Notes: a model not told the origin generated them from the sequence alone. A stretch of DNA of 64,000 nt from an uncultured Poribacteria bacterium (GCA_951828385.1 OX639973.1:1728470-1792469); one strand, 5' to 3'; positions 35,306 through 52,192 are shown, counted from the first letter of the stretch. Numbers and translations are program-made.

Positions 35306-35316
35306 GTTGCCTCCTT

Positions 35317-37972: not shown

Positions 37973-39694
37973 CTATGTCTGTGAGGGAGTTAGCAGTGCG
38001 GCGATGTCTGCTGGCAACTGGATACCCGTTTTCTGCTCAAAATCTTCGACGTTTGCGTAATCATTATGGAGTTCAGCAATGAGGTCCATACCAAGGTCTT
38101 GGGCTGTGATAAAGTCGGATTTGGCTTTTTCCCATTTTTTCATGTATAACCACAGTTGCGCGCGGATGACATAAGCTTGGGCAGAATCCGGACTGAGTTG
38201 TATCACTTTGGTACAGTCTTCAATAGCACTGTCAAAATCACCTTTAGTATAGTAAGTAGCACTTCGATTGTAATAAGTTATGGCATCATTCGGATTGAGT
38301 AGTATCACTTTGGTATAGTCTTCAATAGCACTGTCAAAATTGCCTTTTTCCCTATAAACATTGCCTCGATCGCGATATGCCTTGACATAATCAGGTTTTA
38401 GTTCTATTGCTTTTGTATAGTCTTCAATAGCAAGATCAATCTTATCTATTTCCTCGTAAACAGCACCTCGGTTGTAATAAGCGTTGGCATAATCAGGTTT
38501 GAGTTTTATTGCGGTGTTATAGTCTTTTATGGCATTATCAAGATCGTCTTTGTCAGCGTAAGCATTACCCCGATTGTTATATGCCGTGCTATAATTAGGG
38601 TCTATTTTTATCGCTGTGTTATAGTCTCTGATAGCATTGTCAATGTCGCCTTTATCTCTATAAGCATTGCCTCGATTGCTATATGCCTCGGTATAATCTG
38701 GGTTGAGTTTTATCGCTGTGTTATAGTCATTGATAGCATTGTCAAAATCGTCTATGTTAACGTAAACATTGCCCCGATTGTTGAAGGCACTGGCATTACA
38801 AGGGTCCATCTCCATAGATTTGTTCAAGTCTCGAAGAGCACTGTCAAAATCGTCTTTTATATTGTAAGCCGCTCCCCGGTTACTGTAGGCCGTGGCATAA
38901 TTGGGATTGAGTTGTATCGCTTTACTATAGTCTTTAATAGCTTTGTTAACCTCACCTTTGCGGATGTAAGCTGTTCCTCGATTGTTGTAGGCTGTGGCAT
39001 AATCGGGATTGAGTTGTATCGCTTTGCTCAAATCCACAATAGCTTTGTCAAACTTGTCAAGATTAATATAAGCAGCCCCCCGGTTGTTATAGGCTGCAAC
39101 ATCTTTCGGACTGAGTTCAACTGTTCGTGAGTATGCCTTTAACGCCTCGTCTATTTGCCCCAAAATCATCATGAAGTTACCCCGATGGAATGCTAAAGAA
39201 GCGAGTGTTTCTATTTCCTCGGGTGTTACACTGGGTGAAGGCTTTGCTTGAGATTGCATTTCGTTTATAACCTTTCGGATGCCCTCTACTACACTCATCC
39301 ACCCTTTGCTCTCAGGGTTCCATTCGTTAATATCGTAAATTGGTTTGCCTTTTTCGGGAAGAGCTTGGAAATCACTAAGTTGATGATTTTGCCAATCGCA
39401 GTGTTCAAGGATAATCGGAATCACTCTTATGTTTGGATTTAACGCAGCAGTTAATTCTTTATTGCAGTTTTCAGAAGCGAGACTATACCGACAAGTAAGG
39501 TAGAGTAGAATGTCCGAATCGGCAAGATTGTTGAAAATTGCATCCCGCCATCTATCACCGGGTAGGATTTCGTTGTCGTGCCAGACATCAATTAACCCGT
39601 TTTGCCTCAGAACATCAAGGCTGGTTATCAATTCGTCCTTTGCTTCTGAATTTTTATGTGCATAGGTAATGAAAATCTTCAGCCCTTTATTCAT
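37973..39694 (-). CDS. TIR-domain protein with about 10 C-terminal TPR repeats
   Basis: The N-terminus KIFITYAHKNSEAKDEL...DVWHDNEILPGDRWRDAIFNNLADSDILLYLTCRYSLASENCNKEL matches bacterial TIR_2 domains (FISYxxxD ... YxxSxWCxxEL). This is followed by repeated AxYNNRGxAYxxxxxFDxAIxDYxxAIxLxP TPR units. The ATG at 39694 overlaps the MTase stop (ATGAATAA) and sits 5 nt after a GGAGGG in the MTase 3' end. Confidence 0.75.
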   Translation of the reverse strand: MNKGLKIFITYAHKNSEAKDELITSLDVLRQNGLIDVWHDNEILPGDRWRDAIFNNLADSDILLYLTCRYSLASENCNKELTAALNPNIRVIPIILEHCDWQNHQLSDFQALPEKGKPIYDINEWNPESKGWMSVVEGIRKVINEMQSQAKPSPSVTPEEIETLASLAFHRGNFMMILGQIDEALKAYSRTVELSPKDVAAYNNRGAAYINLDKFDKAIVDLSKAIQLNPDYATAYNNRGTAYIRKGEVNKAIKDYSKAIQLNPNYATAYSNRGAAYNIKDDFDSALRDLNKSMEMDPCNASAFNNRGNVYVNIDDFDNAINDYNTAIKLNPDYTEAYSNRGNAYRDKGDIDNAIRDYNTAIKIDPNYSTAYNNRGNAYADKDDLDNAIKDYNTAIKLKPDYANAYYNRGAVYEEIDKIDLAIEDYTKAIELKPDYVKAYRDRGNVYREKGNFDSAIEDYTKVILLNPNDAITYYNRSATYYTKGDFDSAIEDCTKVIQLSPDSAQAYVIRAQLWLYMKKWEKAKSDFITAQDLGMDLIAELHNDYANVEDFEQKTGIQLPADIAALLTPSQT

Positions 39695-42600
39695 CCTTTC
39701 CCTCCACAATCGCAATCTCATCTTCCGTTAAATTATACAATTCATACACCAATTTATCAATCTCATCTTCAAGGGAGGAAGTGTCTGCTTCGGAGTCAGT
39801 GTGTTTAGCGTCAAGGATTTCGTCAACTTGCATTTCAATCTGTTTGACAATGGATTGGTTTGCATCGGTGATAGGTGGAATAGGAAAGTTTTTCATAAAC
39901 TCACTTTTAAACCTGACTCCTTTTGAACCTAAATGACCACCAGCATAGTAACTTTTGAATGCGAAAAGGAAAAACCCTGAATTTAAGAGACCAAGCAAGT
40001 AAGTGAGATTTTTGCCCGTTAAAAACCTTGTCGTATCAAGCGAATAGAATTTGTTTTTATCAATAAGAAATTTCCCTTCTTTTGCCATCTCTTGCCAAAC
40101 AATCTTTTCCTTATCAAATTCTGAGTAGTAGGCACAAGCCCTGAGATTCCACCAATTTTCGCCTTGATCGTCTCTATTCAAGAGTCCTTTACCTTTCATT
40201 TTTATGATTCCCGAGTCCATCCGTTTTGCTAAGGTCTCAAGGTGATTATAGATAGCGGGATATTTATTGGGAATATCCAGATCGGAACCTGTTGCGAGTA
40301 TGTAAAATTTCCCTTGTTGAGCATGGTAACGTTTAATGTCTTTTCCGCGTAGGAGTGGTTTTATGATTTCTGCTGACTTTGGGTCTTGCTTTATGAGTTG
40401 CTCACGTTTTGCTTCGTCTATGATGAATGCTTCATTACAACCTGTTATGATTCCACGATAGATGTTTATATCCCAATCTTTAAGCGGTTTGCCGATACCC
40501 TCTATTTTGCGTTTCAGGTTGAGTTCGGCAGGTGAGAGTATCGCCCACGGTTCACCTTTAGCAGGCATCTCCATAGTCGCGCCATTGGTACTCAAATACC
40601 GGACTATGCTGCCGGTCTGTCTGTCAAAGTCTGCTCCCAGAGATACACCTCTAAAGGCAGCGGGTACATCGGATACACTCTTTTGAAAAAGCAAGATGTT
40701 TGTGTCAACGGTGGCATCAAACACGTCTGGTCCCATATCCAGCAGTTGAATCGGTTGGGTAAGTGTTACAAAGTAATCCCTCAATTTTTTACCGTAACCA
40801 GCGCGCATCCATTTATTAGAAGTAATCAAACAGGCATGTCCATTGGTTTTCAAAAGTTGATTCGCTTTTTCATAGAACAAACAGTAAATATCGCCTGTAC
40901 GGGCGAAGGTTTCAAAACCTGCGCCTTGATAAAGTTTCCCAAGTCTCCCATTTTCCTTTTGCAATTGGACATAAGGCGGATTTCCAAGTACCACATCAAC
41001 TCCGTCTCTGATGCCAAACATCCGTTCCGGTTCAAACCAATCTGTCTTTGCGTTCTGGTCGTAGGGTTTCCAGCGAACGATTTTGCGAGCGTTTTCAAAT
41101 TCGGCATCAAATTCTTTCTTACGCGTTTCAAACGTTTTCTGTTCCTTCTCTCGCAACTGTTCACGCAGTTCAGCGGTGGGAAGTTGGTTCACTTTTTGAT
41201 CTATTTCTCGTTGTCGGCTCTCTATCCATTCTGTTCGCTGCCGCTCCAATTCTTCCTCCAATTGTTGGCGGCAATCTTCTTCTTGCTCTTCAAGTTTACG
41301 TTTTTGTGTTCGGTTGTTTGCGAGAAAAAACTTTTCACGAATCCCGTCAATTTCTTTTAGCAATTGCTGTACGGTATCATCTTGAAACAATCCCCTTGTT
41401 TCGGATAAATCTATGCCTATCAGTGTATCCGCAGCAACAAAACGTGTCTCCAAATTCGGCAGCGGTTTGATACCGAAGTTCTCCGCGTCTCTGTCCGGTT
41501 CCTGCTCAATAGCAAGCGATATGAAAAAGCGGAGTTTAGCGATTTGACACGCAATCGGTTGGATATCCACACCGAAGATGCTATTTTGGATTAGGTATAA
41601 TTTCCGTCCAAAATCCGAATCACGGTAACGCTCAAAAGTATCACTGATTTCGGAGAGCTCATCCTTCCGTTCCTGTGGATTTTGGGTGTTGAAGGCATTT
41701 GCAGCGCGTTCTTTTGCAAGTTGCATCTGTAATGCTTCCCATCGGTTGTTATCAGGGTCAAGTCGCCGGAGTGCCAGCGTCAACTTGTGGAGTATACCCA
41801 TTGGAAATGCCCCGGAACCGACGGCTGGATCCAATATCTTGAGTTCAGAAATTGTTTTCACAATCGCGTCCGTTTCGCGGTTGTCAAACCATTCGTGAGC
41901 ATCGTCAAACATTTTGGCATAGTCAAACAGGTATCGCAATCGTTCGTCCCAAAGTTCTGAATTACCATCACTCGGTTGACACTTTTGGGATAACGCAGCA
42001 ACTAACGCCTCCTCCACCATATAGTCTACGATAGCGCGTGGGGTGTAATAGGAGCCTGTCATCTTGCGCGCCGTTTCTCCCGTTTCCGGGTTGATAGCGG
42101 CGAGTAGGTTTTCAAACACCCTGCCGAGCAGTTCGGGGTCCAGTGCAACCTCCTGATCTACCGGCGTGTTCTCTTCAACGGTGAATTTGTAGTGTTCAAG
42201 TAAAGGGATCAATCCGTGCTGTGCGTCAAAAAAGAGGTGGTTCGGGATGGATAGCTTATGGTACTGATTATCAGAAAAGCAGTCTATTCGGTAACCGCCT
42301 TCACCTGTTGCCTTGAAACTATCCAGACAGTCAAACAAGCCACCGTTGATGAACGGCGTTTTGTCAAAAAATTCTAATAGCTTATCAGGCGCGCGCATCT
42401 GCTTCTTGTAGCGATACCGTGAGAAATTGCGGTGATTAGAATTGCCGCCCTTGCTAAACGTCCGTTTGTCTATCTCTGTGTTCAACGTTGCGAAAAAGAG
42501 GTTTTGTAGCACAGCACGGTAGTAAGAATCGCCGTTGTCAAAACCATTCTCTGTCAAAAGGTTTTGAACTTGTGCTTTGTTAAAGAGTTCATCTGCCACC

Positions 42601-43442
42601 AATCCTTTTTCCTTGATAAACCAGATAAAGAGCAGACGCGTGATGAGTCGGATAACATGCTCTTCCGGTTTTATCATACGATTCTCATCTGTCGGGAAGG
42701 TTGCCTCTTTAACTGCCCATTCATACCACGCGAACAGTTTCCGATAGAATTGCTTGTTGAGTGCTTCTGTATTGAGAATACCTTCCCACGCTTTATGGAG
42801 TGTGTCAAAGTTGGTAACGTCTTCAATTTCAATAAGGCTACGGAGGTGGAGTTCCGAGAGGATGTCAATATGGGCGCGCTTGGGGGAATCAAGGTTAATG
42901 TCCTTGATGAGCGTCACTTTTTCCAATACCTGCTTATTAGAGGTACGTTTGTGGTGCCTGCGGTTGATTATGGCGAGCGAGAGCACAGCACCGTATCGGA
43001 ACATCACCATGATAGATTTTTCAAATGCTTTGTTAATAAAACGGGTGATGTCAGCAAGTTGTGTGCGCGTGTAGGTATTTTTAGTCAGTTGAACGGTGAC
43101 GAACATATAAGAGGTTCTGAGTGCATCGTCTATGTGGGTACTCTCAAATAACGAACCCTGCTCTGGGTCTACCTGTTGGTTAATCTCATCGTCCGCTACT
43201 TGCATGATTTGGAAAAAGGATTGCCACTCTTCAATGCGGAGTTTATCAGATGGCTTGGCGGTGTCAAGGGCGGATTCGACGAGACGGTCAAACCTATTGC
43301 TGTCGATTGCATCATTTCCGACTCGCTTGCTGTAGTAGCCGAGGGTGTTCAGGAGAGTTGTGGCGGCTTCCCTTAGCGGTTGGTTATCGAAATTCTTTAG
43401 GGCGTTCTCAATGTTCTGTTTAATTGTTATGTCTGAATTCAT
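39687..43442 (-). CDS. Large (1251 aa) gamma-class N6-adenine DNA methyltransferase of the Eco57I / Type IIG / BREX-PglX-like kind
   Basis: TGSYYTPRAIVDYMVEEAL (motif X, the FxTP-type segment), DPAVGSGAFPMGILHKL (motif I), VVLGNPPYVQLQ (motif IV NPPY). An HsdM-like helical segment RLITRLLFIWFIKEKGL precedes the catalytic core, and a long C-terminal region is consistent with a target-recognition domain. Confidence 0.8.
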   Translation of the reverse strand: MNSDITIKQNIENALKNFDNQPLREAATTLLNTLGYYSKRVGNDAIDSNRFDRLVESALDTAKPSDKLRIEEWQSFFQIMQVADDEINQQVDPEQGSLFESTHIDDALRTSYMFVTVQLTKNTYTRTQLADITRFINKAFEKSIMVMFRYGAVLSLAIINRRHHKRTSNKQVLEKVTLIKDINLDSPKRAHIDILSELHLRSLIEIEDVTNFDTLHKAWEGILNTEALNKQFYRKLFAWYEWAVKEATFPTDENRMIKPEEHVIRLITRLLFIWFIKEKGLVADELFNKAQVQNLLTENGFDNGDSYYRAVLQNLFFATLNTEIDKRTFSKGGNSNHRNFSRYRYKKQMRAPDKLLEFFDKTPFINGGLFDCLDSFKATGEGGYRIDCFSDNQYHKLSIPNHLFFDAQHGLIPLLEHYKFTVEENTPVDQEVALDPELLGRVFENLLAAINPETGETARKMTGSYYTPRAIVDYMVEEALVAALSQKCQPSDGNSELWDERLRYLFDYAKMFDDAHEWFDNRETDAIVKTISELKILDPAVGSGAFPMGILHKLTLALRRLDPDNNRWEALQMQLAKERAANAFNTQNPQERKDELSEISDTFERYRDSDFGRKLYLIQNSIFGVDIQPIACQIAKLRFFISLAIEQEPDRDAENFGIKPLPNLETRFVAADTLIGIDLSETRGLFQDDTVQQLLKEIDGIREKFFLANNRTQKRKLEEQEEDCRQQLEEELERQRTEWIESRQREIDQKVNQLPTAELREQLREKEQKTFETRKKEFDAEFENARKIVRWKPYDQNAKTDWFEPERMFGIRDGVDVVLGNPPYVQLQKENGRLGKLYQGAGFETFARTGDIYCLFYEKANQLLKTNGHACLITSNKWMRAGYGKKLRDYFVTLTQPIQLLDMGPDVFDATVDTNILLFQKSVSDVPAAFRGVSLGADFDRQTGSIVRYLSTNGATMEMPAKGEPWAILSPAELNLKRKIEGIGKPLKDWDINIYRGIITGCNEAFIIDEAKREQLIKQDPKSAEIIKPLLRGKDIKRYHAQQGKFYILATGSDLDIPNKYPAIYNHLETLAKRMDSGIIKMKGKGLLNRDDQGENWWNLRACAYYSEFDKEKIVWQEMAKEGKFLIDKNKFYSLDTTRFLTGKNLTYLLGLLNSGFFLFAFKSYYAGGHLGSKGVRFKSEFMKNFPIPPITDANQSIVKQIEMQVDEILDAKHTDSEADTSSLEDEIDKLVYELYNLTEDEIAIVEGKDE

Positions 43443-43461
43443 AGGCTACCTTTCTCAGTTA

Positions 43462-43701
43462 TCAATCCATAATGACACCTATCGGGTATTGTCCGGTCGG
43501 CGCAGTCGGTTCGATAGAGAATCCGAAGTTCGGATGCGACGGGTCCGGGTCCGTGCCGATCGAGTACGTGAACGGCACCGTGATGATATGCGTACCATAT
43601 CCCGTAATGGTTTTCTTTCGATGGGCTTCCGGTATTTGAAGCGTACAATTGATGTTAACCGTCACACAAACCGTAAATACATCCGTACAAATCGAAGACA
43701 T
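43462..43701 (-). CDS. Small hypothetical ORF (79 aa) between the lipoprotein gene and the MTase
   Basis: ORF track only. A competing 69-aa frame exists. GAAAGG lies 7 nt upstream of the MTase ATG that follows. No homology recognised. Confidence 0.25.
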   Translation of the reverse strand: MSSICTDVFTVCVTVNINCTLQIPEAHRKKTITGYGTHIITVPFTYSIGTDPDPSHPNFGFSIEPTAPTGQYPIGVIMD

Positions 43702-43724
43702 TTGCTATTCCTCTAACATTACCC

Positions 43725-43946
43725 CTAATTGCATGTGTTGTGAGATGACGCGACCGGGGCCCGGATCGTAATCTGGGTCCATATAGACGCACGCAATCCC
43801 TTCCCGTTTTTTATTGCCGTGTTGCACTTCAACGATTTCCCAAAAGTTACGGGTCTGCCTACTAATGCTTCTTGCATTGGGGTCTCCTTTAGTTCATCCA
43901 CCACAATTAGCGGATATTGGTTTTCGATACACTTATTTGTCGCCAT
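43725..43946 (-). CDS. Small hypothetical ORF (73 aa) abutting the stop of 43947..44927
   Basis: ORF track only. The start is immediately adjacent to the upstream stop, suggesting co-transcription. Confidence 0.3.
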   Translation of the reverse strand: MATNKCIENQYPLIVVDELKETPMQEALVGRPVTFGKSLKCNTAIKNGKGLRASIWTQITIRAPVASSHNTCN

Positions 43947-44927
43947 TTATTCATACTTCCTCGATTCAACTGCACGTAGATTTATCGGATCAAACCACTC
44001 CGCGAGCAACGTATACATCAACGGCTCTCTCTCACGAAATAGGTCGAGGGCATGTGCTTTCTCTTCTAACGAAAACCAGAGAAACCAGTGTTTTACGCCC
44101 TCTGCCCAGTATTCCCCCTTCGTTGTCAGTGCGTAACTTCCGAGAGAACTGCCAGTTTCTCTTGCAGACTGGAAAGCGGCTTTGAGACGGGCATCAAAAG
44201 TCGTATCTAAGAGCTCAATTGCTATATGGATGGCATGCGCAAACTCATGGATGAATATCTCAAAACCCGAGTTAAAACCCGGTACAACATATACATTCGC
44301 CCAACCATAAGAAGAACCAAGTCCCCCTATCGTTACGATAGGATAGTCAATCGCACCATTCCCTAAGTGTATCTCAGGTATCACTGTGCGACCCTGATGT
44401 GCATTTACAAGAATCATACGGAATTTAGGGCTCGGTGTCGTGCGTCCGGTAACATCGTGTCTACAGCAGTGCTGCGTTGCGCCGGGTCGGTTTTCACGCG
44501 TAGGTGTGAGTAGTTCCCGGAGTTCAGGTCTCTTAAATGTCATGCCCAAAACGATGTCCCGTGCTACATAAAATAAACGGTCATCGATAAGCCCGTTCCC
44601 CATGATCGCAACACCGCCAGCGCTCACATATTTCGTGTAGTACGCTTCCTGCTCACGTCTGAGACATATCTGGTGGATCAGGGCCTTTGCCCGAATATCG
44701 TCGGGGTCATTATCACCCTCTATAGTATCCTCAAGTTCTGCCATGAGCGTGTCCACATCCTTGCCCCAGATGATGTCTTGGATGTTTATTGGCACGGGTC
44801 CGACATCCGGCAACGCTGCAGGTGCGGTCGGCGCAAGCCCGTCGAGCAGCACGCCTTCATCGCCACAGCCCCACGTCAAACAGAGAAAAAGTATCAGAAT
44901 TAGAAACGCTTTTATTTTTATGTGCAT
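43947..44927 (-). CDS. Putative secreted zinc metallopeptidase-like lipoprotein (HExxH)
   Basis: Signal peptide ending LTWGC (possible lipobox Cys). FIHEFAHAIHIAIE contains an HExxH motif. Family not recognised. Confidence 0.5.
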   Translation of the reverse strand: MHIKIKAFLILILFLCLTWGCGDEGVLLDGLAPTAPAALPDVGPVPINIQDIIWGKDVDTLMAELEDTIEGDNDPDDIRAKALIHQICLRREQEAYYTKYVSAGGVAIMGNGLIDDRLFYVARDIVLGMTFKRPELRELLTPTRENRPGATQHCCRHDVTGRTTPSPKFRMILVNAHQGRTVIPEIHLGNGAIDYPIVTIGGLGSSYGWANVYVVPGFNSGFEIFIHEFAHAIHIAIELLDTTFDARLKAAFQSARETGSSLGSYALTTKGEYWAEGVKHWFLWFSLEEKAHALDLFREREPLMYTLLAEWFDPINLRAVESRKYE

Positions 44928-45132
44928 TGGATGTCCTCCTAACTGCCGCTACCACTGCCACTGTCATAGATCGTGAACGAAAAATCAAATGAATCGTCTG
45001 GCATACTCAACATCGCTGGCATCACCTGCTTCTGTTTTCTCTTGTTCCGCCGCAATGGGTTCTCCTGTAGCGGTCTGTGAACCCGAAGTCGCGACCGCAA
45101 GCCGTTGTTCGTCTTGATAGTCGACAAGGAAT

Positions 45133-45240
45133 ACGTAGCATTTACATCTATATCGTAGCACATACTTCCAGTTTGTGCTCTATATCTATATCGTAGCACA
45201 TACTTCCAGTTTGTGCTACGAAGATTTCAGATATTGCTAC
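45133..45240 (+). repeat. Pair of REP heads (cgtagcacatacttccagtttgtgc x2, plus a partial third) immediately 3' of the RAYT gene
   Basis: Seen directly. Same palindrome core as the dispersed REP elements. Confidence 0.7.
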
Positions 45241-45908
45241 AAGTCGCATGTTTTGGATAGGTAATTCCACTTCCATTCTTTCCATTCTTTGACTAAACCT
45301 ATTTTTACCGGATTATTGAGGACATATCTAATAATCCGATGCAGTTCATCTGGATTACGGATACAATGGTCGTAACTTTCGTGTTGCCAGAATGCACCAC
45401 TACGTCCCAATATTTGATTTGCTTTTTGTGCTGTATAACTTTTGAGTGAATGCATGATGGAAGCTAACGAATGGTAACGCATATTGTGAGTCTGTTTATC
45501 GTCTGTTACAGAAGGTTGGATTTCCAGTGGTGTAAATACGACATGGACATGGTTTGCCATGATGCAGTATGAAATTAAAGAATATACTTTCCCATTTAGG
45601 TGGTGAAGACTCTCGGCTACCAATTTAGCTATCTGTTCGTTTTTGAGCCACACGGGTCCGTTATTTGCTTGGTCTAATGTTTCTTCAAATTTTCGGAACC
45701 ACTCACGTTTCTTGTCTGGGATATCTTGCTTCTGTTTGAAGGTTATCTGTTCTGCTGCTTCAAGTTTTCTCTTTTCTGTGATGTACTGTTGTAAGATATG
45801 TTTCGGTATTGATCCTGTCAGGTTAAATGTTATGAAGAAGGTTGCCCCTGGGGGTTGTATATGTGGTAAGTTACGACGATAGTATGATTTGTAGTTATAT
45901 TGATTCAT
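45237..45908 (-). CDS. REP-associated tyrosine transposase (RAYT, IS200/IS605 TnpA-like HUH Y1 transposase)
   Basis: N-terminal YYRRNLPHIQPPGATFFITFNL matches the RAYT R-R-x-L-P-H...F-x-T-F signature. HUH motif in ANHVHVVF. The catalytic Tyr region ESYDHCIRNPDELHRIIRYVLNNP. It is flanked by REP copies. The ATG at 45908 was chosen over the ORF-track start because RAYTs begin near the RR.LPH motif. Confidence 0.75.
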   Translation of the reverse strand: MNQYNYKSYYRRNLPHIQPPGATFFITFNLTGSIPKHILQQYITEKRKLEAAEQITFKQKQDIPDKKREWFRKFEETLDQANNGPVWLKNEQIAKLVAESLHHLNGKVYSLISYCIMANHVHVVFTPLEIQPSVTDDKQTHNMRYHSLASIMHSLKSYTAQKANQILGRSGAFWQHESYDHCIRNPDELHRIIRYVLNNPVKIGLVKEWKEWKWNYLSKTCDL

Positions 45909-46055
45909 TTTTAGCTTTTCCGTTTTACATCTATATTTTTTGTAGTGTCCACTTCCGAAGTGGCGCATCCATTATCTGTGTAGCGTCCATTTCTATTTGG
46001 CGAAAAACAGAATTCTACAGAAGACACAATCTGGAAGATTGTGGTACAACATGGG

Positions 46056-49000
46056 CTAATGTCTAATGACTAACCACGTAACGAGTTCAAATTCAGTTTT
46101 TTCTGTAATCTGACTATCGGCGGTTGGGAGCAGTGCATCAGGGCTTGCATCGAGTTGGTCGTTGACTTTTTGGTTGTATTCCTTGCGAATTGAATTGAGG
46201 GCTACATCGAGTAGCATCTCATAGATCGTCATATCGTTGCCGTTGTCGGTTTCTTCGTTGAAATAGTTGCAGAGCTCTTGATCGTGATTTGTCTTTCCGA
46301 CACAGAGAATGCTGAAGCGTTCTAAAATCCGTTTAGGATTTGTGAATCCGATAGAGATTTCGCCATCATCGCTGATATGGACGAGGTAGTACGGGTGAAT
46401 GGGGTTAAGTTTTTTCCCTTCTTCACTGTCTTCTGCCTCATCGGTCTGCTTTAGACAGAAGATAACCCCCGGTTTAATATTTACAGGAGTGCCATCGTGT
46501 GTGAGCGGTGCGGTAACGGCATATAAGCCAAGCGGGGCATCCCGAAGTTTCGCTTCGTTTTCACGCAGATAGTTGAGTAGCTGCGCACGGAAATCGTCAA
46601 GCGTGAATTGGTTGAGATTCAATTGCTCTTCGATATCCTCAAAGTCAAGGATATCGGTTTGCATGCGGCGGAGTTGCTCGTCGCGGTGCGACCAGACCTG
46701 TTCCATACTCTCTTTTTCCGTCAATGAGAGCAGGTCATCATCACCCGTAGCAGTAAGATTGACGAGTGCCATGCGTGCCTCAACGCGAGGTTTTAAGTTA
46801 ATATATGCGTCGAGTTCAGGGGTAGGCCAGAAGTTGATAAGATGAATTTTCTTGTTCTTGCTGCCGATACGGTCAATTCGTCCGAAACGTTGGATAATCC
46901 GGACGGGGTTCCAGTGGATGTCGTAATTGATGAGATAATCGCAATCTTGTAAGTTTTGTCCTTCGGAGATACAATCGGTAGCGATGAGCAGATCAATTTC
47001 TGGGAGTTCATCTTCGCCTTCTGTTTCACCTTCGTCCCTCTCTTTGGAAATCGGTGAGAAATTGGTAAGAATCTCGTCAAAATCGTTTCGGACGAGTTCG
47101 CTTCTGCTTGCACCACCGGTAACGACAGCGGATTCAATATTAAGCGTCTCCTTTGCCCATTCGTATAGATTATCGTAGAGATAGTTGGCGGTATCGGCAA
47201 AGGCGGTAAAGACGAGAACCTTGCGATTCTCTTTTCCACATCGGTTTTTTGCGGGGTTCTGCACCTTAGCGGCGATCAGCTGCTTGAGTTGCTCCAATTT
47301 GGCATCCCGATCGGACGTAATATTTTGTGCGATTTTGTAAATTTTATCCAATTGCGTTCTATCGTCGTGAAGGTCAGCAAGCCAAGCGTCAAGATCAAGA
47401 TGTTCATAGCGGTAGGTCTGATTTTTTCCCGCCTGCACGCCGGTTTGTAGTTCGTCATCCTCTCCATATTCTTCCGTTGTTTCGGCAAAGGGATCGAACC
47501 CGTTTTCGCTTACAACACTTGCGGTCGCATTCAGAAAGTCCTGAATTTCAGACGCACGCGCTTTGATATTTTCAATGGTGCGTTCAAGGGTTGATGCGAA
47601 GGAGTGGACGCTGCTCTCAAGCCGTTTGAGAAAGTTCACCTTCATCATACCGATGAGGTTAAACTCGCGCTGCTGAAGAAGTCTCTCTCCGTAATGGTGA
47701 CGGCATTCCTGACGAATGTATCTTGACGGATTGAAGATTGCAAGTCGATACCCATCAATCTGGTGGCTGATGGTTTGGTAAGTGGGAAATTTCCCTTGCA
47801 GGTCAATTTCAGGAAAGATGGACTGCGGTGGTTCACGATCCGGGAATTGACCGACCTCTTCAATCGCATTCTCATAGAAGTTTATGACATGGGTCCGAGA
47901 ACGAGCGATAGTGAGTCTATCGAGCAGGGGAAAAAAGTCAGCATTCAGACTTTCCGCAAGACTTTCGTGTTGTTGAGAATTTTTAGGTATCTGCTCTGTT
48001 TCTGTTGTCCACGTATCAAAACGACTTTGTGCAGCGTTGAGCGTTCCTTTAATGCTTGGAATACCAGTCTGTCTAAAAGCGTCGTCCCTATCCTCAGTGA
48101 TTAAACATATTTGATTATCAAGGTCGGTAAGCCGATTGTTGACTGGGGTCGCAGAGAGCATTAAGACTTGGGTTTTGCCGCCACTCTGGATGACATCTTC
48201 CATCAATTTCTCGTAACGGGCACCGCGATTTCGGAAGTTGTGGGATTCGTCGATGACAATAAGATCATATCCATCCCATTCGTGTTGTGCAAGGTCAATA
48301 CCGTTGGATTCTCCACTGTCTCGGCTTAGATCCGTGTGTGCAAGCACGTTGTAACGAAACCGATCGGCTTTCAGGGGATTACGTTTCCTGCGAAAGTGTA
48401 TTGGATAAAGCGTCCAGTTCTTTTCTAATTTTTTAGGGCATAGGACTAAAACATTAGCGTTTCGCAATTCAAAGTACTTGATAATCGCGAGTGCCTCGTA
48501 GGTTTTACCCAATCCGACGCTATCAGCGATAATACAACCGTTGTGTGCCTTGAGTTTCTGGAGGCATGCCTGAACACCGTGTTTTTGAAAAGCGTAGAGT
48601 TTCTGCCAGATTTCTGTCTCCAGGAATGAAGGATTCGCTTCAGCGAACTGCATATCGCTTGCATCTGCCAATATGTTTTCAAAGAGGTGGTAAAGCGTTT
48701 TGTAGTAGATGAATTCGGGGGCTTTGTCCTGATAAGCATTTTTGAGGGTTTGCAACACCTGTGCTTTTACATCCGCCACCTGATCCGATTCCCAAAGGTT
48801 ATCAAACCATGTCTTAAGGTCAGCACAGTCACTTTTACTGTCAACTTCGAGGTTGAGTTCAATGTTGCTTGCTTTTTCGCTTAACCCCAAGCCACGCACG
48901 GTAAAGTTTGAGCTCCCGATAATCGCATCTTCAGTCCTATCGTTCTCTATATAATACATTTTGCCGTGCAGGAAATTTGATTTACGGACTGAACGGATCT

Positions 49001-49322
49001 CGACCTTTTTTTCAATCCACTCGGCGCAAGCTCTGGCGACCTCTTTTTGGGGAAGATAGTTTTGGAGTTTTAACCCAGTTTCGGTAAGTTGGAACGCCTT
49101 GCTTTCGGTTTTGTCGGGATCAATGTGAATAAAACTGGGTTCACCGAACAAGAAACGGAGTCCTTTGATACTTGTTAATTCGTCTCTGAGTTTGTCGAAG
49201 GCGTAAATCGTGAAATAGGCGGAGACAATGGAGAGATCAGAACCGTCTTGGATTTTATCTCGCAGAAAATCGGCGACGGTGCCGTACATGCTGTTGTCTC
49301 GGATACGGGAGGTTTTTGACAT
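46056..49322 (-). CDS. PLD-family nuclease fused to an SNF2-family helicase
   Basis: N-terminal HKD motif context HGKMYYIEN...AIIGSSNFT (PLD nuclease). Helicase motifs GLGKT (Walker A), DESHNF (DExH), and a helicase C-terminal domain (QRFGRIDRIG). Confidence 0.8.
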   Translation of the reverse strand: MSKTSRIRDNSMYGTVADFLRDKIQDGSDLSIVSAYFTIYAFDKLRDELTSIKGLRFLFGEPSFIHIDPDKTESKAFQLTETGLKLQNYLPQKEVARACAEWIEKKVEIRSVRKSNFLHGKMYYIENDRTEDAIIGSSNFTVRGLGLSEKASNIELNLEVDSKSDCADLKTWFDNLWESDQVADVKAQVLQTLKNAYQDKAPEFIYYKTLYHLFENILADASDMQFAEANPSFLETEIWQKLYAFQKHGVQACLQKLKAHNGCIIADSVGLGKTYEALAIIKYFELRNANVLVLCPKKLEKNWTLYPIHFRRKRNPLKADRFRYNVLAHTDLSRDSGESNGIDLAQHEWDGYDLIVIDESHNFRNRGARYEKLMEDVIQSGGKTQVLMLSATPVNNRLTDLDNQICLITEDRDDAFRQTGIPSIKGTLNAAQSRFDTWTTETEQIPKNSQQHESLAESLNADFFPLLDRLTIARSRTHVINFYENAIEEVGQFPDREPPQSIFPEIDLQGKFPTYQTISHQIDGYRLAIFNPSRYIRQECRHHYGERLLQQREFNLIGMMKVNFLKRLESSVHSFASTLERTIENIKARASEIQDFLNATASVVSENGFDPFAETTEEYGEDDELQTGVQAGKNQTYRYEHLDLDAWLADLHDDRTQLDKIYKIAQNITSDRDAKLEQLKQLIAAKVQNPAKNRCGKENRKVLVFTAFADTANYLYDNLYEWAKETLNIESAVVTGGASRSELVRNDFDEILTNFSPISKERDEGETEGEDELPEIDLLIATDCISEGQNLQDCDYLINYDIHWNPVRIIQRFGRIDRIGSKNKKIHLINFWPTPELDAYINLKPRVEARMALVNLTATGDDDLLSLTEKESMEQVWSHRDEQLRRMQTDILDFEDIEEQLNLNQFTLDDFRAQLLNYLRENEAKLRDAPLGLYAVTAPLTHDGTPVNIKPGVIFCLKQTDEAEDSEEGKKLNPIHPYYLVHISDDGEISIGFTNPKRILERFSILCVGKTNHDQELCNYFNEETDNGNDMTIYEMLLDVALNSIRKEYNQKVNDQLDASPDALLPTADSQITEKTEFELVTWLVIRH

Positions 49323-49489
49323 TGTATTCTTTTTCCGAAAGTTTCTATAAATATATTATCATTTCAGGGTCGCTCCTACAGCGATCACTTTTTATGATAC
49401 CAATTCTGTTCATAATTTGCAAGCATAAAAACTCAAAATGTGCTATACTAATTGCATTGCAAATTGGAATATAAACATAGGAGCAAAAA

Positions 49490-52192
49490 ATGAGAAAATT
49501 AACGCTATGCATAGCGATATTCCTCTGTTTAGGAATCGCCGCACACAATAGCAGTGCAAAAGAACTTACATTAGACGATATTTTCCCAACCGATCGGGTT
49601 ATAGATGTGCAAATCACCGTTTCGGATAAGGATTGGAATACGATTCGATATCAGTCACGGAATTTTATGACTGCGTTGAACGAGAAACGGCAGTTCGGTC
49701 CGCTGGATCATCCGTATACTTATGTCGAAGCGAGCGTGAGTATTGACGGTGTGGTCTTTCCGAAAGTCGGAATTCGCAAAAAAGGGTTCATCGGTTCGCA
49801 AAGCCATACGCGTCCCTCTCTGAAAATCAAGCTAAATCATATTGACAAAAAGGGGGAGATTGAAGGACTGACGAACCTGACCCTGAATAACAACAAACAA
49901 GATACAAGTTTAGTGAGCCAATTTATGGGGTACGCGCTGTTTAATGCAATCGGATCGCCCGCGCCCCGCTGCGCGTATGCGAAAGTAACAGTGAACGGAA
50001 AAAACCTCGGGATATACGCACACGTAGAGACCATCCGCAAACCGTTATTGAAACGCGCCTTCGGCAACAGCAAGGGCACCCTCTATGAAGGGACAGTAGT
50101 GGATTTTTACGAAAATTGGGAAAACAGTTTTGAACACAAACGTGGTGACGACACACGCGGGAGGGCACAAATTAATGCCTTAATCGACTTGCTCGCGAAC
50201 CGAGAAACAACAGAAGCTGACATCGGTGAATTGGTCGATTTGGAGTCGTTTTACAAATTCTGGGCAACTGAGGGTTTAGTCGGATTCTGGGACGGGTACT
50301 CCGGAAATAAAAACAACTTCTTCGTTTATTTGAACCCGGAAGACAATAAATTTCACTTCATTCCTTGGGGAATGGACTCTATCTTTACAAAGATGAGTAA
50401 ACTTGAGTTCATGAACGACCGGCGAGCACCGATCTCAGTCAAGACGCAGGGTTTGATTGCATACAAATTGTATCAATTCGAGTCTGGTCGGAAACGGTAT
50501 GCAGAAGCACTCACCGAGATTTTAGACAATCATTGGAATGTCCCAGAATTGTTAGCCGCTTTAGACAAAATCGCTGTGATGGTTGAACCCCATTTAGTGT
50601 CTGCGCAACGCGTCATTGAAGAAGAATGGGATAGAGGGGAAAGATGGGGGGACAAGTCTAAGAGACCGACCTTTGAAAGTGAACTCGAGGCAGTCCGAGA
50701 CTTCATCCGCAACCGCAAAAGTGACATACAAGCAGAAATCGCTAACGAGATGCCGGTATGGCGCAGGCGACCGGATCCGCCGTTCGTTATGGGACCTGAA
50801 GGGTTCGATATGAAAAAATTCATTCGATTGCCCGAAGAAGGGTTGTGGCATGCCGCACGCATCGGTGATATTCCAGCAATGAAACGCTACATCGCTGAAG
50901 GTGCCGATGTCAACGCACCAGATGATGATTTAAACATATTTCCGTTAGCATGGAGCGTACTTCATGGACAAACCGAAGCGACCCGGCTTCTTATTGAAAA
51001 TGGTGCTGACGTTAATATGAAAGACGATAACGGTAGCACACCCTTGCACGGTGCCGCAGTTTTCGGTAGAGCAGATGTCGCAAAACTTCTTGTTGAGAAC
51101 GGCGCAAACCTACAGGTACGCAACGACGATGGCGGAACACCAGCCGATGCCTTGCATCTTGATTGGGGAACAACAGCGTTCATTGGCGGTATGGTAGGTG
51201 TAGAGGTCAAGGATGAAATTGCAGTCATGCAAACAGGTAGAAATGAGATTGCGAAACTCTTTGGGGTCAAAGAATTTGACAGCAAGGGCATATCCTCCGC
51301 CCAGGATCTATCGGGAGCAGTATTTATTGGGAATCTCGCAGCAGTTAAACAAGCACTCACAGATGGAGCAGACCCTAATGGGATGGATCCGCAATCCGGA
51401 AGTACAATACTGTCGATTGCTGCCCTGATGGGGCACACGGAAATTGTAGCACTCCTCCTTGAACACGGCGCAGATGTCAATGCGAAAAGTCGGGACGGTG
51501 GAACGGCACTGCATGCGGCAGCTTTCCTGGGACGTGCTGAAGCAGCAGAACTGCTCCTTGAGAAAGGCGCAGATACGACACTCCCAAATAATACGGGCAG
51601 CACAGCAATAGATGGAGCAAAACTGGACTGGGAGTTTACCAAAGCCATCATCAGTATGATACAAATTGAGGTGGACGAGGCAGAGGTGAAAGTCGGCAGA
51701 ACCAAAGTTATCCAACTGCTCTCTGAACGACCCAATAAGCCATCCGAATCACACAACTTATGGAAAGCAGCTGCGGCAGGCGATCTTTCGGCTATCAAAG
51801 ACGCTTTAGACGATAGTGCAGATCTGAACGCACAGGATCCACAATTCGGAATCACACCGCTGGCATGGGCAGCACTCATGGGACAGACCAAAGTTGCAGC
51901 ACTCCTCCTTGAAAACGGTGTAGATATTAATGTGAGAAATCGGGACGGTGCCACTCCATTACACTCGGCGGCTTTTCTTGGACATATCGAAACAGTGAAA
52001 TTACTGCTTGAGAGAGGTGCCGATACTACGCTCCAAAATAATGACGGCGCAACACCTATGGATACAACACAAGTCGACTGGCAGTTGACCCAGTTTGTGG
52101 CTGGGCTATTGCAAATAGAGATAGACGAATCAGAAGTGAAAGCGGGTAGAACCGAGGTTATAAAACTTATCTCTCGCCACAATAAGAGATAA
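49490..52192 (+). CDS. Secreted CotH-like (atypical kinase fold) domain protein fused to a C-terminal array of ~9 ankyrin repeats
   Basis: Signal peptide. The N-terminal half has CotH-like segments (SLKIKLNH...NLTLNNNKQDTSLVSQFMGYALFNAIGSPAPRCAYAKVTVNGKNLGIYAHVE ... NFFVYLNPEDNKFHFIPWGMDSIF). The C-terminal half has repeated G.TPLH.AA..G...V..LL..GADVN ankyrin units. Confidence 0.75.
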   Translation: MRKLTLCIAIFLCLGIAAHNSSAKELTLDDIFPTDRVIDVQITVSDKDWNTIRYQSRNFMTALNEKRQFGPLDHPYTYVEASVSIDGVVFPKVGIRKKGFIGSQSHTRPSLKIKLNHIDKKGEIEGLTNLTLNNNKQDTSLVSQFMGYALFNAIGSPAPRCAYAKVTVNGKNLGIYAHVETIRKPLLKRAFGNSKGTLYEGTVVDFYENWENSFEHKRGDDTRGRAQINALIDLLANRETTEADIGELVDLESFYKFWATEGLVGFWDGYSGNKNNFFVYLNPEDNKFHFIPWGMDSIFTKMSKLEFMNDRRAPISVKTQGLIAYKLYQFESGRKRYAEALTEILDNHWNVPELLAALDKIAVMVEPHLVSAQRVIEEEWDRGERWGDKSKRPTFESELEAVRDFIRNRKSDIQAEIANEMPVWRRRPDPPFVMGPEGFDMKKFIRLPEEGLWHAARIGDIPAMKRYIAEGADVNAPDDDLNIFPLAWSVLHGQTEATRLLIENGADVNMKDDNGSTPLHGAAVFGRADVAKLLVENGANLQVRNDDGGTPADALHLDWGTTAFIGGMVGVEVKDEIAVMQTGRNEIAKLFGVKEFDSKGISSAQDLSGAVFIGNLAAVKQALTDGADPNGMDPQSGSTILSIAALMGHTEIVALLLEHGADVNAKSRDGGTALHAAAFLGRAEAAELLLEKGADTTLPNNTGSTAIDGAKLDWEFTKAIISMIQIEVDEAEVKVGRTKVIQLLSERPNKPSESHNLWKAAAAGDLSAIKDALDDSADLNAQDPQFGITPLAWAALMGQTKVAALLLENGVDINVRNRDGATPLHSAAFLGHIETVKLLLERGADTTLQNNDGATPMDTTQVDWQLTQFVAGLLQIEIDESEVKAGRTEVIKLISRHNKR

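What the first reader, a model, noticed from the sequence alone, without database searches (positions are those of the whole stretch)
46056..49322. PLD-nuclease-SNF2 helicase fusion as candidate restriction partner of the nearby orphan-looking MTase, separated from it by a RAYT insertion
An N-terminal HKD/PLD nuclease fused to an SNF2 helicase resembles the DrmC plus DrmD components of DISARM, or NTP-dependent restriction translocases. It lies 2.6 kb upstream of the large adenine MTase on the same strand, with a RAYT transposase, REP copies and a lipoprotein gene between them. The pair (translocase-nuclease plus adenine MTase) could be a minimal DISARM-like or Type I/III-like system lacking DrmA/DrmB. 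The RAYT and REP elements may have inserted into, or be scavenging, a defence island.
Basis: partly seen in the sequence, partly recalled or inferred. Interest (0 to 1): 0.6.

Follow-up and report, generated by a model that had tools for sequence, protein, structure and literature searches.

The report
Motor-nuclease and methylase restriction pair
A gene for an ATP-driven DNA-cutting motor and a DNA-methylase gene 2.6 kb away are the two halves of a widespread restriction-like defence system for which I found no experimental study, and here a mobile-element insertion separates them.

Summary
Window 46056-49322 (- strand) encodes a 1088-aa protein with an intact single HKD/PLD nuclease motif and intact SNF2 helicase motifs. 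It lies 2614 bp upstream of a 1251-aa N6-adenine MTase on the same strand. A RAYT gene, REP hairpins and a lipoprotein gene lie between them.

The partner claim is strongly supported. In 72 of 80 related loci from many phyla, a homologue of this MTase follows the PLD-SNF2 gene on the same strand. In 42 of them the gap is -25 to +118 bp. The closest relative, Poribacteria locus L001, has 21 bp where the window has the 2.6-kb insert.

The DISARM reading is not supported. No DrmA or DrmB is present, and the DrmD score is far below cut-off.

One result is new. The MTase N-terminus is a DUF4391-like domain (hhalign 93.5%). More distant PLD-SNF2 homologues sit next to a standalone DUF4391 gene plus Type III Mod and Res.

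The best reading is a two-gene, ATP-dependent restriction-modification system. The MTase would read and mark sites and recruit a dimerising HKD-SNF2 translocase-nuclease. The closest characterised analogue is MANTIS (Gao_RL, BR type-2), but this system lacks the DUF499 and DUF3780 components. It is a new variant of a known kind, of moderate interest.

The parts
46056..49322 (-). HKD(PLD)-SNF2 translocase-nuclease gene, 1088 aa. This is the proposed restriction subunit.
   Evidence: Pfam and PADLOC. The best PADLOC model is C3a139 'HKD+Snf2' (6.3e-124, aa 28-1052). There are 80 full-length homologues at 42-92% identity.
48783..49241 (-). N-terminal single HKD/PLD nuclease domain (about aa 28-180; H119, K121, GSSN136-139).
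   Evidence: PLDc_2 and RE_NgoFVII hits. The motif residues are conserved in 96-100% of 77 homologues. This N-terminal domain alone finds 727 representative clusters at E<=1e-10; the full-length ones are about 1000-1200 aa.
46827..48602 (-). SNF2-type SF2 ATPase core (lobe 1 at aa 241-410, insertion, lobe 2 at aa 676-832).
   Evidence: SNF2-rel_dom, ResIII and Helicase_C hits. Motifs I, II, III and VI are invariant. PDB sequence hits are to CHD1L, RapA and the Sulfolobus Snf2/Rad54 helicase.
46059..46826 (-). Conserved C-terminal region (aa 833-1088) with no family assignment.
   Evidence: No Pfam hit. Conservation is 0.55-0.68 per 50-aa block. The AF2 model is too poor to use.
43444..46064 (-). 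2.6-kb insertion between the two core genes (75-bp REP-like element, RAYT, 2 REP hairpins, lipoprotein gene, about 500 bp non-coding).
   Evidence: blastn against L001 shows homology breaking at 46065 and 43443, with 21 bp in L001.
45237..45968 (-). RAYT (REP-associated tyrosine transposase), 243 aa.
   Evidence: NCBIfam REP_Tyr_transpos 8e-19. Pfam Y1_Tnp is weak. The same cassette sits at the same junction in L073 at 89.5% nt identity.
45155..45219 (-). Two tandem REP hairpins immediately downstream of the RAYT gene.
   Evidence: Four further copies lie at 8364, 8475, 10350 and 27198.
43947..44927 (-). Putative lipoprotein with a HExxH motif. It is cargo of the insertion and not part of the system.
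   Evidence: Translation. No Pfam or PADLOC hit. It is absent from all 80 related loci.
39687..43442 (-). Partner N6-adenine MTase with specificity domain, 1251 aa. This is the proposed modification and target-recognition subunit.
   Evidence: Eco57I, N6_Mtase and TaqI_C hits. PADLOC REase_MTase_IIG 2.6e-135. Motif I DPAVGSGAF538-546 and motif IV NPPY821-824 are conserved. A homologue follows the PLD-SNF2 gene in 70 loci and lies upstream in 2.
42771..43364 (-). DUF4391-like N-terminal domain of the MTase (aa 27-224).
   Evidence: Pfam DUF4391 gives E 0.013 for the window protein and 3.2e-6 for homologue P0133. hhalign against 5 standalone DUF4391 proteins gives 93.5% probability, E 2.4e-7, over 181 columns. 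AF2 pLDDT is about 80-94 here. Foldseek finds no PDB match.
39879..40361 (-). TaqI_C-like target-recognition domain. Its sub-region at aa 1101-1200 is swapped between close relatives.
   Evidence: Pfam TaqI_C at aa 1028-1188. Identity to L001 is 32-46% here against 82-98% over aa 1-900.
37973..39721 (-). TIR-TPR gene overlapping the MTase stop by 35 nt. It may be a lineage-specific third gene or a neighbouring defence gene.
   Evidence: TIR_2 and TPR hits. ThsB-like, 2.5e-24. A TIR-TPR gene also lies downstream of the MTase in L001, L002, L003 and L023 (adjacent in L001 and L002, with a gap in L003 and about 3 kb away in L023).

Best explanation
The two genes form a two-gene, ATP-dependent restriction-modification system.

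The 1251-aa protein is the recognition and modification subunit. Its TaqI_C-type domain reads a short, probably asymmetric site. Its gamma-class N6-adenine MTase marks host DNA. Its N-terminal DUF4391-like domain is the docking or activation module for the second protein.

The 1088-aa protein is the restriction subunit. It is an SNF2-type double-strand DNA translocase with one HKD half-site. Two copies must therefore come together to build one PLD active site, as in BfiI, SauUSI and MANTIS MtsD.

On unmethylated foreign DNA, the site-bound MTase would load or license the motor. ATP-driven translocation or looping would bring two motors together, probably from two sites, and the composite HKD site would cut both strands.

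In this genome a RAYT/REP element carrying a lipoprotein gene has inserted into the 21-bp gap between the genes. Both ORFs remain intact.

Shown: domains, intact motifs, gene linkage, the insertion, purifying selection and the swap in the specificity domain. Inferred: physical interaction through DUF4391, the dimerisation requirement, restriction of unmethylated DNA, and the direction of control.
For: Linkage:
- An MTase homologue is present in 72 of 80 loci spanning Poribacteria, Chloroflexota, Verrucomicrobiota, Cyanobacteriota, Pseudomonadota, Bacteroidota, Acidobacteriota and others.
- In 42 loci the MTase starts -25 to +118 bp from the helicase stop.
- Six of the 8 loci with no such MTase homologue have at most about 1.2 kb of downstream sequence. 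One of these, L079, still shows a standalone DUF4391 gene.

Conservation and selection:
- HKD and helicase motifs are invariant or nearly so and are present in the window protein.
- MTase motifs I and IV are present.
- dN/dS against L001 is 0.085 for PLD-SNF2 and 0.17 for the MTase.
- Pairwise identity matrices of the two proteins correlate (r 0.29; 0 of 2000 permutations reach this).
- The specificity sub-domain at aa 1101-1200 is only 32-46% identical between relatives that are 82-98% identical over aa 1-900. This is the usual signature of switching between specificities.

The DUF4391 link:
- The MTase N-terminus is DUF4391-like.
- PLD-SNF2 homologues at 39-44% identity are followed by a standalone DUF4391 gene and a Type III Mod-like MTase; a Res-like helicase follows in L078, Vibrio and B. 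cereus but not in the Desulforapulum plasmid, and L079 ends after DUF4391.
- The helicase-DUF4391-MTase triad is therefore conserved while the MTase type changes.

Analogy: MANTIS MtsD is a PLD plus SF2 dimer with one composite active site. It restricts unmethylated DNA downstream of an MTase complex (bioRxiv 10.64898/2026.09.23.753747).

Context: the locus is a low-GC defence island that also holds a Type II MTase, an HD/dGTPase-like gene and a TIR-TPR gene.
Against: - There is no experimental evidence for any member of this exact family. I found none in the searchable literature.
- In the Type III context a complete Mod and Res pair is already present. There the HKD-SNF2 plus DUF4391 pair may be an add-on rather than the sole nuclease.
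- The window MTase deviates from the family at several positions that are otherwise conserved in at least 93% of members: S143 for P, Q171 for D, and V815 for F.
- After the insertion the MTase has no recognisable promoter of its own, though the scan is uninformative.
- The correlation between the two identity matrices is weak and partly reflects species phylogeny.
Confidence: 0.68

Rival explanations
1. HKD-SNF2 plus DUF4391 is an accessory or back-up effector module that attaches to otherwise complete R-M enzymes. It is not the primary restriction subunit. It might process DNA after first cleavage, or fire when the MTase or REase is inhibited by phage anti-restriction proteins.
For: In Clostridium, Vibrio and Bacillus loci the helicase and DUF4391 genes precede a complete Type III Mod and Res pair. 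PADLOC models class the window MTase with Type IIG fusion enzymes that cut on their own. The BREX-related literature describes auxiliary and back-up nucleases (PMC12839542, abstract).
Against: In the 72 loci of the window's type no other nuclease gene is conserved. The MTase N-terminus is DUF4391-like with no PD-(D/E)xK signature and no MmeI-type nuclease hit. The coupling is tight, with a median gap of about 9 bp.
Confidence: 0.15
2. The two genes are independent neighbours. One is a self-contained Type IIG restriction-modification enzyme. The other is an autonomous SauUSI-like, modification-dependent (Type IV) PLD-helicase. They are co-located only because both live in defence islands.
For: SauUSI has the same PLD plus SF2 order and works alone (as described). 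PADLOC assigns Type IIG to the MTase. The family was first noticed merely as a neighbour of Type III CRISPR-cas cassettes (PMC6546367).
Against: Order, strand and near-zero spacing are fixed in dozens of phyla-spanning loci. This is operon-level linkage, not island-level linkage. There is no DUF3427 or other modified-base reader domain. SauUSI is not retrieved by sequence. The DUF4391 companion is retained whether free or fused.
Confidence: 0.07
3. The system in this particular genome is a decaying remnant. The RAYT insertion uncoupled the genes, and one or both are no longer functional or expressed.
For: The 2.6-kb insertion carries a hairpin with a T-rich tail right after the helicase stop (46043-46025). 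The MTase has unusual substitutions at conserved positions. Many Poribacteria MTase homologues in the protein database are only 470-820 aa long, so they are possibly fragmented.
Against: Both ORFs are full length with all catalytic motifs. dN/dS is 0.085 and 0.17, although this averages over both lineages. Twenty-eight of 80 loci tolerate inserted genes at the same junction. L073 keeps the same RAYT cassette with both genes intact.
Confidence: 0.1
4. It is a reduced DISARM system, with DrmD and DrmC fused plus DrmMI.
For: DrmD models give partial hits (PADLOC 2e-39; NCBIfam 1.6e-45). The MTase hits DrmMI at 1.9e-24. On a B. cereus plasmid a homologue lies directly after drmA and a DUF1998 gene.
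Against: The DrmD score of 155.8 bits is far below the cut-off of 610, and only the helicase C-lobe aligns. tblastn with DrmA and DUF1998 finds nothing in the window or in the 80 loci. The best model by far is a different family, C3a139, at 413 bits.
Confidence: 0.03

Closest known systems
MANTIS (Gao_RL, 'Type-2 BREX-related' system): MtsA-D (bioRxiv 10.64898/2026.09.23.753747; PMC12839542)
   Same: The effector has an N-terminal HKD/PLD nuclease fused to an SF2/SNF2-type ATPase. It is paired with an N6-adenine MTase that carries the specificity. In MANTIS the effector is a dimer with one composite PLD site and acts on unmethylated DNA. Passenger genes also get inserted into these operons.
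   Different: MANTIS and BR-2 systems need a DUF499 AAA+ ATPase (MtsA) and a DUF3780 protein (MtsB). Neither is in the window. Among the 80 loci I found no gene of that kind in the recurrent neighbour clusters, though only a few neighbours were scanned against Pfam. Here the MTase carries a DUF4391-like N-terminal domain instead. The related BR-type-1 helicase model HmaA hits only weakly (6e-26, against 6e-124 for C3a139). No MtsD-specific model or sequence was compared.
Type ISP restriction-modification enzymes (LlaGI, LlaBIII); this comparison rests on established knowledge
   Same: The functional parts list is the same: nuclease, SF2 dsDNA translocase, gamma-class N6A MTase and a specificity domain. 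Type ISP enzymes read asymmetric sites, hemimethylate, and cleave after two motors converge. The window pair looks like a split version.
   Different: Type ISP is one polypeptide with an Mrr-type PD-(D/E)xK nuclease. Here there are two polypeptides, an HKD nuclease, an SNF2-family motor and a DUF4391 domain.
Type III R-M (Mod + Res)
   Same: Both are two-subunit, ATP-dependent systems with an MTase-plus-specificity subunit and a helicase-nuclease subunit. More distant members of this helicase family sit in operons with Type III Mod and Res.
   Different: Res has a C-terminal PD-(D/E)xK nuclease and a non-SNF2 helicase. Mod is a beta-class N6_N4 MTase. The window has an N-terminal HKD, an SNF2 motor and an Eco57I/MmeI-type gamma-class MTase.
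SauUSI (Type IV) and the CglI/NgoAVII ATP-dependent PLD restriction enzymes
   Same: A PLD nuclease is combined with an SF2 ATPase. The Pfam RE_NgoFVII PLD model hits aa 83-176. A single HKD implies dimerisation.
   Different: SauUSI has a DUF3427 reader and targets modified DNA. CglI and NgoAVII split the nuclease and the ATPase into two proteins and use a B3 DNA-binding domain. None of those domains is found here.
DISARM class 1 (DrmD, DrmMI, DrmA, DrmB, DrmC)
   Same: An SNF2 helicase, a PLD nuclease and an N6A MTase occur in one locus.
   Different: The defining DrmA and DrmB are absent. The DrmD and DrmMI models match only partially and far below cut-off.

Membership tests
HKD+Snf2 family (PADLOC C3a139; reported in PMC9881135 as CDD cd09178 PLD domain plus cd18793 SNF helicase domain) | Full-length match to the family model: an N-terminal single HKD followed by an SNF2 ATPase. 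| tested here: met
   PDLC01075 gives E 6.3e-124, 413 bits, aa 28-1052 against model positions 25-922 of 948. Eighty full-length homologues were found.
HKD+Snf2 family | Catalytic HKD residues and helicase motifs I, II, III and VI are intact. | tested here: met
   H119, K121, GSSN136-139, GLGKT270-274, DESH358-361, SAT390-392 and QRxGRxxR811-818 are all present and at least 96% conserved.
HKD-SNF2 / DUF4391 / MTase operon (unnamed; defined here) | An MTase gene lies immediately downstream on the same strand. | tested here: met
   It is 2614 bp away in the window because of an insertion. The gap is 21 bp in the closest relative, L001. Of 80 loci, 70 have the MTase homologue downstream on the same strand and 2 have it upstream.
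HKD-SNF2 / DUF4391 / MTase operon | A DUF4391 domain is present, either free or fused to the MTase. | tested here: met
   hhalign gives 93.5% probability, E 2.4e-7, over 181 columns. Pfam is sub-threshold for the window protein (E 0.013; 3.2e-6 in a homologue). The call rests on profile-profile evidence, not on the curated threshold.
DISARM | DrmA (YprA-like helicase) and DrmB (DUF1998) are present. | tested here: not met
   tblastn with B. cereus DrmA and DUF1998 gives no hit at E<=1e-3 in the window or in the 80 loci.
DISARM | The helicase scores as DrmD. | tested here: not met
   NF038317 gives 155.8 bits against a cut-off of 610, and only aa 553-837 align.
MANTIS / BREX-related type 2 (Gao_RL) | A DUF499 AAA+ ATPase (MtsA) and a DUF3780 protein (MtsB) are in the operon. 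| tested here: not met
   Pfam scans of the main ORFs between 28 and 64 kb show neither. The ORFs at 28627-29601, 31214-32203, 32576-33409 and 53972-55954 were not scanned. In the 80 loci the clusters of neighbours are SMC-like ATPase, AlbA_2-like, DUF1016-like and TPR, but only a few neighbours were scanned against Pfam.
MANTIS / BREX-related type 2 | An HKD-helicase effector plus an N6A MTase. | tested here: met
   This is an architectural match only. No MtsD sequence was available for direct comparison.
Type IIG/IIL R-M fusion (MmeI/Eco57I-like) | An N-terminal PD-(D/E)xK endonuclease domain in the same polypeptide as the MTase. | tested here: inconclusive
Type III R-M | A Res-type helicase with a C-terminal nuclease, and a beta-class Mod MTase. 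| tested here: not met
   The nuclease is an N-terminal HKD, the helicase is SNF2, and the MTase is Eco57I/gamma-class. Bacillus Mod and Res queries do not hit the window.
SauUSI-type Type IV enzyme | A C-terminal DUF3427 modified-cytosine reader and autonomous action. | tested here: not met
   No DUF3427 hit. No PDB sequence match to SauUSI. Autonomy cannot be tested with these tools.
RAYT (REP-associated tyrosine transposase), for the inserted gene | A Y1/HUH transposase fold with flanking REP hairpins that are also dispersed in the genome. | tested here: met
   NF047646 gives 67.9 bits against a cut-off of 80, which is slightly under. The HVH motif is visible in the translation. Two REP hairpins are adjacent and four are dispersed, against 0 expected.

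The most novel reading that the evidence does not exclude
DUF4391 is a dedicated adaptor that plugs an HKD-SNF2 motor-nuclease into any site-specific DNA methyltransferase, whether free beside Type III Mod or fused to an Eco57I-type MTase. The pair in this window would then be the minimal form of a distinct, uncharacterised class of ATP-dependent R-M system. That class would achieve self/non-self control without the DUF499 AAA+ loader that MANTIS and BREX-related systems require.
Probability: 0.4. Interest if true: 0.65.

Novelty: new variant of a known kind. Interest (0 to 1): 0.5.

Why it matters
If the model is right, this is the simplest known way to couple a PLD-type motor nuclease to methylation-based self-marking. 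It uses two genes, has no AAA+ loader, and has an uncharacterised adaptor domain (DUF4391).

The helicase family is common. A genome scan returned 597 confirmed hits and was capped. Homologues occur on 184 plasmids. The N-terminal domain finds 727 representative clusters at E<=1e-10. Yet annotation pipelines name it only 'helicase-related protein', and defence finders score the MTase as Type IIG.

The gain would be threefold:
- A function for DUF4391.
- Corrected annotation of many supposed Type IIG enzymes, which may have no nuclease of their own.
- A compact system for testing how MTase-bound sites license a translocating nuclease. That step is still not reconstituted for MANTIS.

For this genome, the result shows that the 'orphan' MTase is not orphan, and that RAYT/REP elements can settle inside a defence operon without destroying the ORFs.

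Tried and rejected
1. The AF2 model of the full PLD-SNF2 protein (35-sequence alignment, 70-94% identity) failed, with mean pLDDT 42.4. I made no fold search and no statement about the C-terminal domain.

3. I considered RAYT as a functional component. RAYT-like genes sit at the same junction in L073 and L065. They are fused in frame inside the MTase in L026 and L058. I rejected a specific role because the same RAYT family is fused in frame to many unrelated proteins, including Dtd, tRNA ligases, PGDH and response regulators. It is a promiscuous inserter.

4. The promoter and terminator scan of 43300-49700 gave counts within the shuffled expectation. It says nothing about whether the MTase is still co-transcribed.

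5. BLASTP of the MTase N-terminus against a single DUF4391 protein showed nothing. Only profile-profile comparison detects the relationship.

6. Literature searches for a named system with this exact architecture found only passing mentions. These are PMC9881135 Table 3 (a PLD plus SNF CDS next to a Cj0031-like enzyme), PMC6546367 (C3a139), and two unrelated papers that mention DUF4391.

7. There is no HTH or controller gene upstream of the helicase in the window. The plasmid-borne Type III-linked versions do have one.


Full report
**1. Observation**

The ORF at 46056..49322 lies on the minus strand and encodes 1088 aa. Pfam finds a PLD-like domain (PLDc_2, aa 87-177, E 2.6e-11; RE_NgoFVII PLD domain, 4e-8). 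It also finds an SNF2-related N-lobe (1.8e-13), ResIII (3e-9) and Helicase_C (aa 676-820, 4e-14).

The catalytic residues can be read in the translation: H119-G-K121, G136-S-S-N139, GLGKT270-274, DESH358-361, SAT390-392 and QRFGRIDR811-818. An alignment with 77 homologues from other genomes shows each of them conserved in 96-100% of members.

The large MTase (39687..43442, minus strand, 1251 aa) has Eco57I, N6_Mtase and TaqI_C domains. It has motif I DPAVGSGAF and motif IV NPPY. It starts 2614 bp downstream of the helicase stop.

Three features lie between the two genes. The first is a RAYT gene (REP_Tyr_transpos, 8e-19). The second is a pair of tandem REP hairpins, with four more copies elsewhere in the window against none expected by chance. 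The third is a 326-aa ORF with a lipobox and a HEFAH motif.

**2. Are the two genes partners?**

I kept 80 loci with 10-kb flanks, at 42-92% identity. They come from Poribacteria, Latescibacterota, Chloroflexota, Verrucomicrobiota, Cyanobacteriota, Pseudomonadota, Bacteroidota, Acidobacteriota, Planctomycetota, Bacillota and others.

tblastn with the window's MTase finds a homologue in 72 of the 80 loci. In 70 of them it lies downstream on the same strand. In 42 its start lies -25 to +118 bp from the helicase stop, with a median of about 9 bp.

The 8 loci without such a homologue break down as follows:
- Six end within about 1.2 kb of the helicase gene. One of these, L079, still shows a standalone DUF4391 gene after the helicase. 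Another, L055, has a different HSDR_N/N6_Mtase/Methylase_S protein upstream.
- L078 has 10 kb of downstream sequence and carries DUF4391 plus Type III Mod and Res.
- Only L014 has ample downstream sequence and no MTase.

All-against-all clustering of the neighbouring ORFs shows that these two genes are the only ones conserved across the set. Identity matrices of the two proteins correlate (r 0.29; 0 of 2000 permutations reach this). This is weak and partly phylogenetic.

**3. The insertion**

The closest relative is L001, a Poribacteria MAG with 92% aa identity. It reads ...TAG-GAGGAGATAT-ATG... between the two genes. blastn shows window homology to L001 breaking at 46065 and resuming at 43443. 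The 2.6-kb block at 43444-46064 therefore replaces 21 bp.

The junction is a recurrent landing site. Twenty-eight of 80 loci have inserts of 0.2-2.5 kb there. Nine carry a gene that I read as DUF1016-like and seven carry one that I read as AlbA_2-like; both labels are from inspecting the sequences, not from a Pfam scan. From my own knowledge, these are the same kinds of passenger genes that occur in Type I R-M operons.

A second Poribacteria genome, L073, has the same RAYT cassette at the same junction. The cassette is 89.5% identical at the nucleotide level, while the flanking genes are only 71-81% identical.

**4. What the MTase N-terminus is**

PADLOC's Type IIG models match the MTase strongly, but from about aa 345 onward. 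The first roughly 460 aa are highly conserved within the family.

Residues 27-224 align to DUF4391:
- Pfam gives E 0.013 for the window protein and 3.2e-6 for the homologue P0133, both under the gathering score.
- hhalign of a 44-sequence N-terminal alignment against two standalone DUF4391 proteins gives 84.6% probability.
- Against five standalone DUF4391 proteins it gives 93.5% probability, E 2.4e-7, over 181 columns.

An AF2 model of aa 1-470 is confident over the domain (pLDDT 80-94). It has no Foldseek match in the PDB below E 0.05. The conserved residues (R126, R134, R161, R162, K165, D171, K175) show no PD-(D/E)xK pattern.

**5. The wider family**

On plasmids, 184 records carry homologues at about 39-41% identity. 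There the helicase is followed by a standalone DUF4391 gene and a Type III Mod-like MTase. A DEAD-box Res-like gene follows in Vibrio and B. cereus but not on the Desulforapulum plasmid. The chromosomal locus L078 has the full set, and L079 ends after DUF4391. On the B. cereus plasmid, drmA and a DUF1998 gene lie directly upstream.

The invariant core is therefore HKD-SNF2, DUF4391 and an MTase, with DUF4391 either free or fused. The family is rare in phages, at 5 of 50,697 records. The N-terminal HKD domain alone retrieves 727 representative clusters at E<=1e-10. The full-length ones are about 1000-1200 aa, with the domain at the N-terminus.

**6. State of the system in this window**

Both ORFs are intact. 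dN/dS against L001 is 0.085 for the helicase and 0.17 for the MTase.

The MTase is 82-98% identical to L001 over aa 1-900. It drops to 32-46% at aa 1101-1200 inside the TaqI_C domain. This points to a swap of specificity between close relatives, as expected for a system under selection from phages.

There are caveats. The window MTase has S143, Q171 and V815 where at least 93% of the family have P, D and F. A hairpin with a T-rich tail follows the helicase stop. Expression of the MTase after the insertion is untested.

**7. Mechanism (inferred)**

A single HKD motif means two copies must pair to make one active site. This is established for Nuc, BfiI and SauUSI, and is now shown for MANTIS MtsD by cryo-EM.

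SNF2 ATPases translocate on double-stranded DNA. Eco57I/MmeI/PglX-type MTases read asymmetric sites and methylate one strand; this is established knowledge.

I propose the following sequence. The MTase binds an unmodified site and recruits or licenses the motor through its DUF4391 domain. ATP-driven translocation brings two motors together. The composite HKD site then cuts. This is the logic of Type ISP and Type III enzymes and of MANTIS, where inverted site pairs are restricted best.

**8. Comparison with known systems**

- **DISARM:** not a member. DrmD scores 155.8 bits against a cut-off of 610. DrmA and DUF1998 are absent.
- **MANTIS / BREX-related type 2:** the effector architecture and the logic are the same. 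The defining DUF499 ATPase and the DUF3780 protein are absent, and the related BR-type-1 helicase model HmaA hits weakly.
- **Type III, Type ISP, SauUSI and CglI/NgoAVII:** each shares some parts but fails a defining feature. The membership table gives the details.
- **This exact pairing in the literature:** I found only passing mentions. PMC9881135 lists a PLD plus SNF CDS beside a Cj0031-like enzyme. Shah et al. list the helicase as C3a139, a neighbour of Type III CRISPR-cas. I found no experimental study and no name for it.

**9. Verdict**

The thing itself is a widespread, unnamed, two-gene ATP-dependent R-M variant, and I found no experimental study of it. Its distinguishing feature is the DUF4391 link. 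It is a new variant of a known kind, of moderate interest.

Noticed in passing
L026 3835-8496 and L058 14211-18785 (Chloroflexales); compare window 45237-45968: A RAYT-like domain (REP_Tyr_transpos, 75-76 bits) is inserted in frame inside the partner MTase ORF, after about aa 486 and before motif I. This gives uninterrupted ORFs of 1553 and 1524 aa. The same RAYT family appears fused in frame to D-Tyr-tRNA deacylase, tRNA ligases, phosphoglycerate dehydrogenase, helicase C-terminal domains and response regulators. Widespread in-frame RAYT fusions are unexplained.
   Followed up: partly
window 45155-45992 and 45975-46049; L073 13467-14296, 14325-14399 and 14513-14587: The RAYT cassette is 89.5% identical at the nucleotide level between the window and L073, at the same helicase/MTase junction. 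The flanking genes are only 71-81% identical, and the nearer relative L001 lacks the cassette. This suggests recent transfer or targeted re-insertion of a RAYT/REP unit. RAYTs are usually regarded as immobile, domesticated genes.
   Followed up: partly
window 37973-39721 (-): A TIR-TPR gene (TIR_2 5e-16; ThsB-like 2.5e-24) overlaps the MTase stop codon by 35 nt. A TIR-TPR gene also lies downstream of the MTase in L001, L002, L003 and L023, from Poribacteria and Latescibacterota (adjacent in L001 and L002; with a gap in L003; about 3 kb away in L023). It may be a lineage-specific third component or a co-transcribed NADase-type effector.
   Followed up: partly
window 29632-31153 (+): A Type II MTase (PADLOC MTase_II, 7.5e-58) overlaps a 262-aa ORF that has no family hit. 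That ORF is a candidate cognate restriction endonuclease.
   Followed up: no
window 34736-36690 (-): An HD-domain protein with HD_assoc_2 (dGTPase-like in PADLOC, 6e-14) overlaps a 197-aa ORF that weakly resembles the DarG C-terminal region (1.8e-6). This may be a two-gene defence module.
   Followed up: no
window about 28-50 kb: GC content is 0.41-0.46 over roughly 28-50 kb (apart from one 2-kb bin), against about 0.48-0.52 over most of the window's first 28 kb and 0.48-0.56 beyond 54 kb (two bins at 12-16 kb and one at 52-54 kb are also low). Together with the gene content at 29.6-49.3 kb, this marks a horizontally acquired defence island.
   Followed up: partly
L007 17207-18826 and 15 other loci: An SMC_N/AAA_23-like ATPase of about 540-660 aa lies directly after the MTase in 16 of 80 related loci. 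It is absent from the window. It may be an optional third subunit.
   Followed up: partly
L082 (B. cereus plasmid NZ_AP022875.1) 4140-17873: drmA and a DUF1998 gene lie directly upstream of an HKD-SNF2, DUF4391, Mod and Res block. This is either a composite DISARM/Type III hybrid or two stacked systems.
   Followed up: no
window 43947-44927 (-): The cargo lipoprotein has a lipobox (LTWGC) and a HEFAH zinc-protease motif. It has no Pfam, NCBIfam or PADLOC hit and no homologue in the 80 loci.
   Followed up: no
window 49490-52192 (+): A CotH-kinase-like domain is fused to about 450 aa of ankyrin repeats, behind a signal peptide. The gene is syntenic in L073 and L001. It is a typical eukaryote-like protein of sponge symbionts.
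   Followed up: no
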